Virus record (IMG/VR): IMGVR_UViG_3300014846_000030
Span: 1-4,509 of that record
Direction: 5' to 3' (one strand)
Length of the DNA stretch: 4,509 bases
Source of the DNA: a virus
Taxonomy: Duplodnaviria; Heunggongvirae; Uroviricota; Caudoviricetes
The position numbers and the translations under genes were made by a program. The stretch's first letter is position 1, and the number at the start of each line of letters is the position of its first letter. The notes under the pieces are model-generated. The model worked only from the letters and a program-made list of their open reading frames with translations, had not been told where the DNA came from and did not search any database. Of this stretch, positions 1 through 4,509 are shown in pieces.

Positions 1-93
1 CGGGATTATTTCATCCTCAGAGAACGGTTGATGACAATGCAGAAGCAGGTGGAAGGGGCGCAGGAATATATCCGCACTCAGTGTATTAACTAG
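1..93 (+). CDS. Rz: Rz-like i-spanin, C-terminal fragment (5' end outside window)
   Basis: Frame 1 reads RDYFILRERLMTMQKQVEGAQEYIRTQCIN then TAG at 91-93. This closely matches the C-terminus of lambda Rz as I recall it (...AERDYFTLRERLITMQKQLEGTQKYINEQCR). It sits immediately upstream of cos, as in lambdoid phages. Confidence 0.85.
   Translation, partial: RDYFILRERLMTMQKQVEGAQEYIRTQCIN
2..31 (+). CDS. Rz1: Rz1-like o-spanin, C-terminal fragment embedded in Rz in the +1 frame
   Basis: Frame 2 reads GIISSSENG then TGA at 29-31, matching the lambda Rz1 C-terminus (...GIISPSERG). The nested-gene arrangement inside Rz is typical of lambdoid spanins. Only 10 codons are visible. Confidence 0.7.
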   Translation, partial: GIISSSENG

Positions 94-116
94 TATTTTT
101 GTTATCCGGAGAATGC

Positions 117-341
117 ATGAAGAAATTACTGGTAACCGTAAAGCCTTTTCAGGGAACAATTCTGTTCCGTATTTTGCAGCGTGGCCGTGTTCTTGTTGAA
201 GGTTCGTTCAGTGGTAAATGTATGCAATTACACTCCCGGACCTTTCAGGTGAATGCCACGAATGAAGAGCTAACCGTTGAGTGTACGATGAATACCGCTA
301 AATGCCGCATGGTATCCGCTGCATTACAGCGAGTGTGTTGA
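117..341 (+). CDS. hypothetical small protein (74 aa), function unknown
   Basis: ATG at 117 is preceded by GGAG at 107-110 (6-nt spacer); the ORF runs to TGA at 339-341. The ORF track starts it at a TTG at 99, but the ATG with the RBS is the more plausible start. It contains 4 Cys. I do not recognise the product, and it is not a Bor homologue as far as I can tell. Confidence 0.4.
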   Translation: MKKLLVTVKPFQGTILFRILQRGRVLVEGSFSGKCMQLHSRTFQVNATNEELTVECTMNTAKCRMVSAALQRVC

Positions 342-607
342 GCGACCTTATTATCCATGCGCGGTATTGTCGCCGTATCCCCGCATTAACAGAGACCGCA
401 GCCCGACCGGGAGACTCCTCTGCGCGAGTGTGCGGGGATAATCAAAAACGATACACACCGGGGTTTACCGCGTTAACGGAGCGCGGCGTTGTCCCCTCAT
501 AGTCGCCTGTCCGGTGCGATGGTGGAAGAAACCGAACGTTCATTTCTCGTTATTTTTCATGCTGGCCGGGCGCAGATGCGTTGCATCTGTTGCCAGCCTT
601 CTCCTGC

Positions 608-631
608 NNNNNNNNNNNNNNNNNNNNNNNN
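608..631. other. Run of 24 N (assembly gap or masked bases) coinciding with the predicted cosN nicking site
   Basis: N characters are directly visible. The sequence resuming at 632 (TTTTCGCTATTTATGAAAATTTT) is nearly identical to lambda bases 19 onward, so the gap covers the expected 12-nt cohesive end plus flanks. Confidence 0.95.
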
Positions 632-781
632 TTTTCGCTATTTATGAAAATTTTTAGGGAAAAATCAGATCCGTTCTTCTTCTTTTTAACTGATTGATTA
701 TCAATAGAATTTTAAAAATATAAAAGGATCTGACAAAGGCTGTTTTTGTTAGAAAACGCCATTTTCAGATCCTTTCTGGTT
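632..781 (+). promoter_or_regulatory. cos: cos site, cosB portion: terminase-binding R3, IHF site I1, R2 (inverted), R1
   Basis: 632-655 matches the lambda left-end sequence. R3 (TCAGATCCGTTCTTCT, 665-680) is at the same offset as lambda R3 (GCGTTTCCGTTCTTCT). R2 (AAAAGGATCTGA, 722-733) is an inverted copy of R1 (TCAGATCCTTTC, 766-777). An exact match to the IHF consensus WATCAANNNNTTR lies on the minus strand at 687-699, between R3 and R2. This is the same order as lambda cosB, placed directly upstream of Nu1. Confidence 0.8.
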
Positions 782-794
782 CCCGGGGGAGTGT

Positions 795-1343
795 ATGAAC
801 GTCAATAAGAAAAAACTGGCCGATATTTTTGGCGTTGATGTCAGGACCATCACCGCCTGGCAGAGTCAGGGGTTACCACTAGTTTCTGGTGGAGGGAAAG
901 GGACTGAATCAGTTTTTGATACAACTGCTGCCATTCAGTGGTATGCGCAGAGGGAAGCTGATATTGAAAACGAAAAACTCCGTAAAGAGATCGAGGATTT
1001 GAGGGCTGCCAGCGAATCAGACCTTCAGCCCGGCACCATTGATTACGAACGTTACCGACTGACGAAGGCACAGGCCGATGCACAGGAGCTGAAAAATGCT
1101 CGTGAGGAAGGCCTTGTCCTCGAGACGGAGTTATTTACCTACATCTTTCAGCGAGTGGCACAGAATATATCAGGGATCCTTGTCCGTGTCCCTCAGACAC
1201 TGCAGCGTAAATACCCTGATATATCACCCGTACATCTTGATGCTGTGAAAACTGAAATCGCGAAAGCATCCGATGTGGCTTCTGAAGCCGGTGAGAATGT
1301 GCGCAGGTGGATTGATGATTTCAGACGAACTGAGGGCGGCTAA
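795..1343 (+). CDS. nu1: terminase small subunit (gpNu1 family), 182 aa
   Basis: The translation [42 protein letters not shown]...[27 protein letters not shown] aligns along most of its length with lambda Nu1 (MEVNKKQLADIFGASIRTIQNWQEQGMPVLRGGGKGNEVLYD...). RBS GGGGGAG at 784-790. It lies immediately downstream of cosB. Confidence 0.93.
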
Positions 1344-3243
1344 TTCTGCAGGAGCGATAGCAACCGGCCTCCTTGCGCTAAAAATTCCTGTCCCTCTGAC
1401 GACAGTTCAGTGGGCAGATCGACATTATTACCTTCCGAAAGAGTCATCTTACACCCCGGGGCGGTGGGAAACACTGCCGTTTCAGGTTGCCATCATGAAC
1501 AGCATGGGGAATGACCGGATCCGCACTGTTAATCTGATTAAATCTGCCCGTGTTGGTTATACAAAGATGTTGCTGGGAGTGGAGGCTTATTTTATTGAGC
1601 ATAAATCACGCAACAGCCTTCTTTTCCAGCCCACGGATTCTGCTGCTGAAGATTTTATGAAATCTCATGTGGAACCCACGATCAGGGATGTGCCGGTTTT
1701 ACTCGATCTTGCACCGTGGTTTGGGCGTAAACATCGTGATAATACCCTCACGCTGAAACGTTTTTCATCGGGCGTGGGCTTCTGGTGCCTGGGCGGGGCT
1801 GCCGCTAAAAACTACCGTGAAAAATCCGTGGACGTGGTCTGCTATGACGAACTTTCCTCGTTCGAACCGGATGTCGAAAAAGAGGGTTCGCCAACCCTGC
1901 TTGGGGATAAACGTATTGAGGGCTCTGTATGGCCCAAATCCATTCGCGGCTCGACGCCTAAAATCAAAGGCACCTGCCAGATCGAAAAAGCGGCCAACGA
2001 GTCGGCGCATTTCATGCGTTTTTATGTGCCCTGCCCACACTGTGGGGAGGAGCAGTATCTGAAATTTGGCGATGAATCCACGCCTTTTGGCCTTAAATGG
2101 GAGAAGGACAGCCCCGAAAGCGTTTTCTACCTCTGTGAACATCATGGCTGCGTGATCCATCAGTCTGAGCTTGACCAGAGCAACGGGCGGTGGATCTGTG
2201 AAAACACGGGGATGTGGACCCGTGACGGTCTGACGTTTTTCAGCGCCGCGGATAATGAAATTCCGCCGCCGCGCTCCATCACGTTCCATATCTGGACGGC
2301 GTACAGTCCGTTCACCACCTGGGTACAGATAGTCTATGACTGGCTGGATGCACTGAAAGATCCCAACGGCCTGAAAACCTTTGTGAACACCACGCTGGGC
2401 GAGACCTGGGAAGAGGCCGTGGGCGAAAAACTCGATCACCAGGTACTGATGGATAAGGTCGTGCATTACACGGCGGCGGTGCCAGCCCGGGTGGTTTATC
2501 TGACGGCGGGCATTGACTCGCAGCGAAACCGTTTTGAGATGTATGTCTGGGGATGGGCACCGGGAGAGGAAGCTTTTCTGGTGGATAAAATCATCATTAT
2601 GGGCCGTCCCGATGAGGAAGAGACGCTGTTACGTGTGGATGCGGCGATCAACAAAAAATACTGCCATGCAGACGGAACCGAAATGACCATTTCCCGTGTC
2701 TGCTGGGACACCGGGGGGATCGATGGTGAAATTGTCTATCAGAGGTCAAAAAAACACGGTGTTTTCCGGGTGCTGCCGGTAAAAGGCGCATCTGTCTATG
2801 GCAAGCCGGTGATCACCATGCCGAAAACCCGCAATCAGCGGGGCGTGTATCTGTGTGAAGTGGGGACGGACACCGCAAAAGAAATTCTCTATGCCCGTAT
2901 GAAAGCCGATCCCACGCCTGCGGATGAAGCCACGTCGTATGCCATCCATTTTCCTGATGATCCGGAGATTTTTTCGCAGACAGAGGCGCAGCAACTGGTC
3001 GCGGAAGAGCTTGTGGAGAAGTGGGAAAAAGGAAAGATGCGTCTGCTGTGGGATAACAAAAAGCGGCGTAACGAAGCGCTGGACTGCCTGGTGTATGCCT
3101 ATGCGGCATTACGTGTGTCCGTGCAACGCTGGCAGCTTGATCTGGCTGTACTGGCAAAATCCCGGGAAGAAGAGACGACCCGGCCAACCCTTAAAGAACT
3201 GGCAGCGAAGCTGTCCGGAGGAGTGAATGGTTACAGTCGCTGA
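1315..3243 (+). CDS. A: terminase large subunit (gpA family; ATPase/translocase plus cos endonuclease), 642 aa
   Basis: Strong colinear similarity to lambda gpA: [40 protein letters not shown] (P-loop-like, 1540-1563), [32 protein letters not shown] and [10 protein letters not shown] all have lambda counterparts. The start is placed at ATG 1315 (RBS AGGTGG at 1305-1310) because it gives an N-terminus the same length as lambda gpA; the ORF-track start at 1273 and an ATG at 1297 are alternatives. Overlaps Nu1 by 29 nt. Confidence 0.93.
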
Positions 3244-3433
3244 ACTGCAGGCGCTGCGTCAGGCGCGCCTTGATTTATTAACCGGTAAACGGGTGGTGTC
3301 TGTCCAGAAAGATGGTCGCAGAATTGAATATACGGCGGCTTCTCTGGATGAGCTTAACCGGGCGATCAATGATGCGGAGTCGGTACTGGGGACAACCCGA
3401 CGTCGCCGTCGTCCGCTGGGAGTGAGGTTATGA
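3227..3433 (+). CDS. W: head-tail joining / head completion protein (gpW family), 68 aa
   Basis: The translation [43 protein letters not shown]... matches lambda gpW ([43 protein letters not shown]...) and has the same 68-aa length. RBS GGAGGAG at 3217-3223. Overlaps the end of A by 17 nt. Confidence 0.9.
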   Translation: MVTVAELQALRQARLDLLTGKRVVSVQKDGRRIEYTAASLDELNRAINDAESVLGTTRRRRRPLGVRL

Positions 3434-4434
3434 AACGAACGCCTGTCCTGATTGATGTGAACGGCGTTCCGCTTCGTGAGAGTCTCAGCTACAACGGGGG
3501 CGGCGCAGGATTTGGCGGGCAAATGGCGGAGTGGTTGCCACCGGCGCAGAGTGCCGATGCAGCCCTGCTGCCTGCGTTGCGTCTGGGGAATGCCCGGGCA
3601 GATGATCTGGTGCGCAATAACGGGATAGCGGCTAATGCGGTGGCCCTGCATAAGGATCATATTGTCGGGCATATGTTTCTGATCAGCTACCGTCCGAACT
3701 GGCGCTGGCTGGGGATGCGGGAGACTGCGGCAAAAAGTTTTGTCGATGAGGTGGAGGCGGCCTGGTCAGAATACGCAGAAGGGATGTTTGGCGAGATCGA
3801 CGTGGAAGGGAAACGCACGTTTACGGAATTTATCCGTGAAGGTGTGGGCGTTCATGCGTTTAACGGCGAAATCTTTGTGCAGCCGGTCTGGGATACGGAA
3901 ACCACGCAGTTATTCCGTACGCGTTTTAAAGCCGTGAGTCCGAAACGGGTGGACACGCCAGGACGCGGTATCGGGAACCGTTTTCTGCGGGCCGGTGTGG
4001 AGGTTGATCGATATGGCCGTGCCGTTGCGTACCATATCTGTGAGGATGATTTTCCTCGCTCCGGGAGTGGACGATGGGAACGGATCCCGCGTGAACTACC
4101 CACCGGGCGTCCGGCCATGCTGCATATTTTCGAGCCGGTGGAGGACGGGCAGACCCGTGGGGCCAATCAGTTTTACAGCGTCATGGAACGGCTGAAGATG
4201 CTCGATTCCCTGCAGGCAACACAGCTTCAGTCGGCCATAGTGAAGGCGATGTATGCAGCGACGATTGAAAGTGAACTGGATACCGAAAAGGCCTTTGAAT
4301 ATATCGCCGGTGCGCCGCAGGGGCAGAAGGATAATCCGCTTATTAATATTCTGGAGAAGTTCTCCAGCTGGTATGACACGAATCACGTGACGCTGGGCGG
4401 TGTCAAAATTCCGCACCTTTTCCCTGGTGGGTAA
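3430..4434 (+). pseudogene. B: portal protein (gpB family), N-terminal 334 codons only; truncated by IS1 insertion
   Basis: The translation matches the lambda gpB N-terminal region (GGGSGFGGQ, GNARADDLVRNNG, FEPVEDGQTRGAN, TQLQSAIVKAMYAATIESELDT, GGxKxPHLxPG). Lambda gpB is 533 aa; here the frame runs straight into the IS1 terminal repeat and stops at a TAA supplied by the IS1 end (4432-4434). Its ATG overlaps the gpW stop (ATGA). Confidence 0.9.
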
Positions 4435-4509
4435 TGACTCCAACTTATTGATAGTGTTTTATGTTCAGATAATGCCCGATGACTTTGTCATGCAGCTCCA
4501 CCGATTTTG
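4430..4509 (-). mobile_element. IS1: IS1 terminal 80 bp (IRR end, element on minus strand); remainder outside window
   Basis: GGTAATGACTCCAACTTATTGATAGTGTTTTATGTTCAGATAATGCCCGATGACTTTGTCATGCAGCTCCACCGATTTTG matches, from memory, the reverse complement of the IS1 right end including the terminal inverted repeat GGTAATGACTCCAACTTATTGAT. The junction is ambiguous by 1-2 nt because of shared G residues. Confidence 0.9.
4445..4509 (-). CDS. insB: IS1 transposase InsB, C-terminal fragment (5' end outside window)
   Basis: The minus strand reads ...HYLNIKHYQ then stop (reverse complement of 4445-4447 is TAA), which is the expected insB C-terminus inside the IS1 right end. Confidence 0.75.
   Translation of the reverse strand, partial: KSVELHDKVIGHYLNIKHYQ

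What the first reader, a model, noticed from the sequence alone, without database searches (positions are those of the whole stretch)
4420..4509. IS1 insertion truncates the portal gene, so the prophage is probably packaging-defective
The gpB reading frame is conserved with lambda up to ...GGVKIPHLFPG and then runs directly into the IS1 terminal inverted repeat, which supplies the stop codon at 4432-4434. About 200 C-terminal codons of a lambda-type portal are therefore separated from the N-terminal part. A portal is essential for procapsid assembly and DNA packaging, so unless it is complemented this element cannot form infectious particles. This is a typical domestication or decay event in IS1-rich Enterobacteriaceae such as Shigella.
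Basis: partly seen in the sequence, partly recalled or inferred. Interest (0 to 1): 0.6.

Follow-up and report, generated by a model that had tools for sequence, protein, structure and literature searches.

The report
IS1 insertion splitting a prophage portal gene
A common jumping gene (IS1) has landed in the portal gene of a lambda-like prophage of gut E. coli and cut the protein short; this is a recent and ordinary example of prophage inactivation.

Summary
Window 4430-4509 is the right-end inverted repeat and the insB 3' end of IS1. It is 80/80 identical to IS1 in at least 5000 plasmid records, with the transposase on the minus strand. The ORF 3430-4434 is the first 333 codons of a 530-aa lambda-family portal (58% identical to lambda gpB). 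The break lies at 4429|4430, and IS1 supplies one Gly codon and the TAA stop.

The window ends inside IS1, as do the five metagenome contigs that carry the same junction. I therefore searched for the predicted far junction and found it on one metagenome contig. That contig starts with 55 nt of the IS1 left end, followed by a 9-bp target duplication (TCCCTGGTG), after which the portal resumes. Joining the two halves rebuilds a known 530-aa E. coli portal exactly. Flanking DNA differs from an intact E. coli prophage by one synonymous base in 7.3 kb, so the insertion is recent.

The truncation removes the end of the clip, the second stem helix, the second wing segment and the crown of the portal. 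The prophage therefore cannot make its own portal. Rescue by a co-resident lambdoid prophage is possible.

Nothing points to Shigella, and the nearest relatives are E. coli. The IS1 body and the linkage of the two junctions in one genome are inferred. This is ordinary biology.

The parts
795..1343 (+). terminase small subunit (Nu1), intact
   Evidence: PF07471 Phage_Nu1, E = 1.6e-86. Identical region in E. coli prophages is annotated terminase small subunit.
1315..3243 (+). terminase large subunit (gpA), intact, 642 aa
   Evidence: PF05876 GpA_ATPase and PF20454 GpA_nuclease. There is one synonymous difference (2916 G/T, Thr534) from the APEC E12049 prophage.
3227..3433 (+). gpW head-tail adaptor, intact, 68 aa
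   Evidence: PF02831 gpW, E = 1.2e-22.
3430..4434 (+). truncated portal gene: 333 portal codons, one IS1-completed Gly codon (4429-4431), then the TAA stop from IS1 (4432-4434)
   Evidence: PF05136 Phage_portal_2 covers profile positions 2-290 of 354 only, against 2-354 in the intact protein. It is 58% identical to lambda gpB residues 7-336. DNA up to 4429 is 100% identical to intact 530-aa portal genes in three E. coli genomes.
4421..4429 (.). left copy of the 9-bp target-site duplication TCCCTGGTG
   Evidence: The same 9 bp follow the IS1 left end on contig OAWU01000720.1 (L091 56-64), before the portal resumes.
4430..4509 (-). IS1 right end (IRR and subterminal sequence); the window ends inside the element
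   Evidence: 80/80 identity to IS1 in at least 5000 plasmids and to nt 1-80 of the 768-bp R100 IS1 in this orientation.
4445..4509 (-). 3' end of insB / insAB' (last 20 codons and the stop)
   Evidence: Translation is KSVELHDKVIGHYLNIKHYQ*. This matches the end of the R100 IS1 transposase frame and the CDS offset in R100.

Best explanation
A single IS1 element (768 bp, transposase on the minus strand) transposed into codon 334 of the portal gene of a lambda-like prophage in a human-gut E. coli lineage and made the usual 9-bp target duplication (TCCCTGGTG). The IS1 right end completes one Gly codon and supplies a TAA stop. The gene now encodes a 334-aa fragment. By alignment with lambda gpB, this fragment lacks the last residues of the clip domain, the second stem helix, the second wing segment and the crown. 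Such a fragment cannot be expected to form the dodecameric portal channel. The prophage on its own should therefore fail to build packaging-competent procapsids, although its terminase, gpW and downstream head genes are untouched. The event is recent, because both flanks are virtually identical to intact prophages. Shown: IS1 identity, orientation, exact break point, truncation, existence of the complementary junction with the duplication, and lack of other mutations. Inferred: the unseen 588-bp middle of IS1, linkage of both junctions in the window's genome, and the phenotype.
For: IS1 end: 80/80 identity, E = 6e-34, in at least 5000 records; orientation and InsB C-terminus. Break point at 4429|4430. 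The same left junction is 100% identical over window 632-4509 on independent ENA gut-metagenome contigs, each ending 53-125 nt into IS1. Right junction on OAWU01000720.1: 55 nt of IS1 IRL end (0 mismatches to R100 IS1), TCCCTGGTG, then portal. L091 56-3549 is 100% identical to the intact prophage L004 7022-10515, and the N-terminal and C-terminal halves together give exactly the 530-aa WP_001403608.1 portal. Window 632-4429 differs from that prophage by one synonymous base. Pfam coverage is cut at profile position 290 of 354. Lambda gpB domain limits are wing 24-249 and 368-452, stem 250-279 and 343-367, clip 280-342, crown 453-511 (PMC10721106). The break corresponds to lambda residue 336. 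IS1 is 768 bp and gives 8- or 9-bp duplications (PMC12428005).
Against: No single contig spans the whole IS1. Its central 588 bp were never seen next to this portal. The right junction comes from a different contig, and probably a different sample, than the window. The phenotype is untested. Many E. coli carry several lambdoid prophages with near-identical head genes (median 2 and up to 12 matching places per genome). Such prophages complement head defects in O157 Sakai (PMC2669165).
Confidence: 0.88

Rival explanations
1. The IS1 end marks a larger structure or a rearrangement rather than a simple 768-bp insertion. One possibility is an IS1-flanked composite transposon (Tn9-like, direct IS1 copies). 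Another is a later IS1-IS1 recombination (deletion or inversion) in the window's genome, so that the portal C-terminal half is no longer adjacent.
For: All contigs stop within 125 nt of the IS1 end, so nothing beyond that is seen. A composite element with direct IS1 copies would give the same two junctions and the same 9-bp duplication. IS1 is multicopy in most E. coli (median 10 matching places per genome for a query that combines the portal part and the IS1 end).
Against: Single IS1 insertions are far more common than composite ones (general knowledge). Both junctions exist with a perfect 9-bp duplication and flawless flanks, which is the signature of an unrearranged primary insertion.
Confidence: 0.07
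2. The junction is an assembly artefact, a chimeric join of a portal contig to a repeat.
For: The window ends in a multicopy repeat and contains an N run and a mosaic join at 545-631, so it is an imperfect assembly.
Against: The identical junction was assembled independently in at least three ENA samples with different assemblers and k-mer sizes (L002 is a k127 contig). The reciprocal junction carries exactly the 9-bp duplication expected from transposition. A chimera would not create a target duplication.
Confidence: 0.02
3. The insertion is real but has little consequence, because a co-resident lambdoid prophage supplies a compatible portal in trans or repairs the gene by recombination. The element would then still be packaged and transferred.
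For: E. coli genomes often carry several near-identical lambda-type packaging and head modules. Head-defective Sakai prophages Sp9 and Sp15 were still released as DNase-resistant particles (PMC2669165). Terminase and the right side of cos are intact here.
Against: The host genome is unknown, so no helper has been shown. Even with a helper, the prophage itself is genetically defective.
Confidence: 0.3

Closest known systems
IS1 (IS1A/IS1B type, as in plasmid R100 and E. coli K-12)
   Same: The right end is 80/80 identical and the left end 55/55 identical (on L091). The InsB C-terminus is identical, and there is a 9-bp target duplication.
   Different: Nothing differs in what is visible. Only 80 nt lie in the window, and the element's body is unseen. 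The insertion site, portal codon 334, is absent from 5,426 complete E. coli genomes and 85 IMG/VR contigs.
Bacteriophage lambda portal protein gpB (PDB 8K38; PF05136)
   Same: The gene order is the same (Nu1-A-W-B). The first 333 residues are 58% identical, and the intact relative aligns over lambda residues 7-527, E = 1.4e-213.
   Different: The protein is truncated at the position equivalent to lambda residue 336. It lacks the second stem helix, the second wing segment and the crown.
IS-disrupted lambdoid prophages of E. coli O157 Sakai (for example Sp4, with nu1 disrupted by an IS)
   Same: An IS insertion knocks out one packaging or morphogenesis gene in an otherwise lambda-like prophage, and complementation by sibling prophages is possible (PMC2669165).
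   Different: The IS (IS1), the target (portal) and the host lineage all differ. Only a single lesion is seen here, and the flanks are otherwise pristine.

Membership tests
IS1 family insertion sequence | Terminal inverted repeats of IS1 (IRR GGTAATGACTCCAACTTATTGAT; IRL GGTGATGCTGCCAACTTACTGAT) | tested here: met
   IRR lies at window 4430-4452 within an 80/80 match. IRL is on the partner contig L091 1-55, with 0 mismatches to R100 IS1.
IS1 family insertion sequence | 768-bp body with insA, insB and the A-run -1 frameshift giving InsAB' | not testable with these tools
   The window holds only 80 nt. The longest contig reaches 125 nt into IS1. The InsB C-terminal 20 residues are present on the minus strand. 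The middle 588 bp were never observed at this site.
IS1 family insertion sequence | 8- or 9-bp direct target-site duplication | tested here: met
   TCCCTGGTG lies at window 4421-4429 and at L091 56-64. The expected size comes from PMC12428005. The two copies are on different contigs.
Lambda-family portal protein (PF05136 Phage_portal_2) | Profile match above Pfam's gathering score | tested here: met
   239.2 bits against a cut-off of 32.9, but only profile positions 2-290 of 354 are covered.
Lambda-family portal protein (PF05136 Phage_portal_2) | Complete portal fold: wing, stem, clip and crown, needed for the dodecameric channel | tested here: not met
   The protein ends at the equivalent of lambda residue 336. 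Residues 343-367 (stem), 368-452 (wing) and 453-511 (crown) are missing. It is a gene fragment, not a functional member.
Lambda-type (cos) packaging module | Gene order cos - nu1 - A - W - B | tested here: met
   Pfam assignments and the same order in lambda NC_001416. The sequence to the right of cosN is conserved.
Lambda-type (cos) packaging module | Intact cosN and cosQ-side flank | tested here: inconclusive
   Window 608-631 is a run of N where relatives have cosN. The 65 nt to its left differ from lambda-type relatives.

The most novel reading that the evidence does not exclude
The insertion may not be simple decay. It could be a maintained, reversible 'off' state. The disrupted allele occurs in several people's gut metagenomes with no secondary mutations. 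Precise excision between the 9-bp repeats would restore the exact portal, so the lineage would keep an otherwise perfect prophage locked but recoverable. Alternatively, it could persist through helper prophages.
Probability: 0.03. Interest if true: 0.35.

Novelty: already known. Interest (0 to 1): 0.08.

Why it matters
The finding matters little beyond annotation. It shows that this contig is a prophage with a single recent knockout lesion in an essential head gene, so it should be annotated as a disrupted (pseudo) portal followed by IS1. It should not be read as a short novel portal. It also explains why the contig ends where it does: the assembly breaks in a multicopy IS. For surveys of gut E. 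coli prophages it is one more example of an IS1 hit as the first step of prophage inactivation.

Tried and rejected
(1) I tried to extend the window directly. This is impossible, because the window and all five contigs that encode the identical 334-aa product stop 53-125 nt inside IS1.

(2) I scanned GTDB representative genomes with a degenerate 49-mer that matches the left junction, the intact site and the right junction. It gave 0 hits. The pattern was validated on local loci. The source genome and this portal allele are therefore not among the species representatives.

(3) I ran the same pattern on IMG/VR. It gave 85 contigs, all intact at this site.

(4) I searched complete E. coli RefSeq genomes with a 70-nt junction probe. 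No true junction was found. The only hits covering at least 80% of the probe were 88%-identity chance extensions next to other IS1 copies.

(5) I considered a fusion protein reading from IS1 into the portal C-terminal half. The frame is open for 32 codons upstream but holds no ATG, GTG or TTG until 36 codons into the portal part. I rejected this idea.

(6) An Rfam scan of the window found nothing.

(7) Shigella origin has no supporting evidence. The exact truncated protein is recorded only from JGI/IMG and ENA metagenome sources.

Full report
**Observation**

The end of the window reads ...CCGCACCTTTTCCCTGGTG|GGTAATGACTCCAACTTATTGATAG....

Window 4430-4509 is 80/80 identical (E = 6e-34) to IS1 in at least 5000 plasmid records, where it lies under genes annotated as IS1 family transposase. 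In plasmid R100 the 80 nt are the first 80 nt of a 768-bp IS1, read so that the transposase is on the opposite strand. The minus strand of window 4445-4507 translates to KSVELHDKVIGHYLNIKHYQ*, the InsB C-terminus. The window therefore ends inside the IRR end of IS1, with insA/insB on the minus strand.

**The interrupted gene**

Window 3400-4429 is 100% identical to portal genes in three complete E. coli genomes, and the alignments stop exactly at 4429. In E. coli APEC E12049 that gene is 1593 nt, or 530 aa (WP_001403608.1). It sits in the lambda order terminase small, terminase large, head-tail joining, portal, S49 peptidase, decoration, major capsid.

Pfam gives Phage_Nu1, GpA_ATPase with GpA_nuclease, gpW and Phage_portal_2 for the four window genes. 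The portal profile is covered only to position 290 of 354 in the window protein, against 354 of 354 in the intact one. The fragment is 58% identical to lambda gpB residues 7-336 and ends at PHLFPG / PHLMPG. The intact relative matches the solved lambda portal (8K38) with E = 1.4e-213.

The window protein has 333 portal residues and lacks 197. Codon 334 (GAT in the intact gene) became GGG, with its first base from the portal and the next two from IS1.

**Extending beyond the window**

Direct extension is not possible. The exact 334-aa product is on record on five metagenome contigs, of which three human-gut ENA assemblies are shown. They are 100% identical to the window from 632 onward, and all end 53-125 nt inside IS1. 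This is a typical assembly break in a multicopy repeat.

I predicted the far junction as the reverse complement of the IS1 IRL tip, followed by an 8-10 bp duplication and then the next portal bases. I scanned the metagenome collection for it. One contig, OAWU01000720.1 (17,496 nt), begins ...ATCAGTAAGTTGGCAGCATCACC|TCCCTGGTG|ATGATCTGAAACTGCAG.... That is 55 nt identical to the IS1 left end, then a 9-bp copy of window 4421-4429, then the portal.

The rest of the fetched locus (3.5 kb: portal C-terminal part, S49 peptidase, decoration protein, start of the capsid gene) is 100% identical to the intact APEC prophage. Window 3430-4429 joined to this contig after the duplication translates to the 530-aa portal with no differences.

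IS1 length and the 8- or 9-bp duplication are as described in PMC12428005.

**Age and distribution**

Window 632-4429 differs from the intact APEC prophage at one synonymous position (2916, Thr534 of the large terminase), and the downstream 3.5 kb differs at none. The insertion is therefore recent.

The junction is absent from the other collections searched:
- 5,426 complete E. coli genomes
- GTDB species representatives (pattern validated)
- 85 IMG/VR contigs with this portal, all intact at the site

The truncated protein is known only from JGI/IMG and ENA metagenome sources. This is a rare allele of a common E. coli prophage. Nothing points to Shigella, although Shigella chromosomes were not in the collections I could search.

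**Consequence**

According to the lambda virion structure paper, gpB has these domains: wing 24-249 and 368-452, stem 250-279 and 343-367, clip 280-342, crown 453-511 (PMC10721106). The break, equivalent to lambda residue 336, leaves the first wing segment, one stem helix and most of the clip. It removes the second stem helix, the second wing segment and the crown.

It is established knowledge that gpB is essential for lambda procapsid assembly and packaging. A fragment without half of the channel-forming fold is expected to be non-functional (inference). No start codon allows a fusion from IS1 into the C-terminal part.

Downstream head genes may suffer polarity, although Q-antiterminated late transcription should read through. 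This rests on general knowledge and was not tested.

The prophage is genetically portal-defective. Whether it is phenotypically dead depends on helpers. Many E. coli carry several near-identical lambda-type modules, and head-defective prophages of O157 Sakai are still packaged (PMC2669165).

**Rivals**

An assembly chimera is very unlikely. The junction was assembled independently in several samples, and the reciprocal junction carries a target duplication.

A composite IS1 transposon, or a later IS1-mediated rearrangement in the window's own genome, cannot be excluded, because no contig spans the element. I give these about 7% together.

**Comparison and novelty**

Every component is known: IS1 identical to the R100/K-12 type, a portal identical to a RefSeq protein, and the phenomenon of IS-disrupted lambdoid prophages. 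Only the insertion site is new. The finding is correct and ordinary.

**Other things seen**

The 24-N run at 608-631 sits where relatives have cosN. The 65 nt to its left belong to a ylcI/ynfO-type gene from a different (HK97-type) module, and not to the lambda-type flank on the cosQ side. This is either a mosaic join that may also affect cos, or a scaffolding artefact.

Noticed in passing
window 608-631: A run of 24 N lies exactly where three related prophages carry GTTACGGGGCGGCGACCTCGCGGG, the lambda-type cosN cohesive-end site. The sequence to its right (TTTTCGCTATTTATGAAAATTTT...) is the conserved start of the lambda left arm.
   Followed up: partly
window 1-607, especially 545-607: The left 607 nt are collinear (96%) with the lysis-to-ylcI/ynfO module of an HK97-type prophage (E. 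coli 2018-166, L093 972-1578). Positions 545-607 are the 3' end of a YlcI/YnfO-family gene on the minus strand, cut off at the N run. Relatives with lambda-type cos have about 65 nt of unrelated sequence there, the flank on the cosQ side. This is either a natural mosaic join or deletion that could impair cos, or a scaffold join.
   Followed up: partly
window 99-341 (+), probably 117-341: A small ORF (74-80 aa) lies between the Rz-like lysis gene end and cos. It has no Pfam match and is annotated as a hypothetical protein in E. coli STEC434 and 2018-166.
   Followed up: partly
L001-L003 against window 1-544: Contigs sharing the identical IS1-portal junction differ by 0.4-3% and by indels in the lysis-side 540 nt, while being 100% identical from cos onward. 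Either the disrupted packaging module sits in several mosaic prophage backgrounds, or metagenome assemblers mixed co-resident lambdoid prophages.
   Followed up: no
cluster of the truncated portal: P0006, P0011: Other shortened portal products (378 aa on a 367-kb E. coli contig, 350 aa on a 116-kb contig) sit inside long contigs. This suggests that independent portal truncations recur in E. coli prophages.
   Followed up: no
window 4426-4429 plus the intact sequence L004 7027-7036: The target reads GGTGATGATC at the insertion point. Its first 7 bases equal the tip of the IS1 left inverted repeat (GGTGATGCTG). This is probably chance.
   Followed up: no
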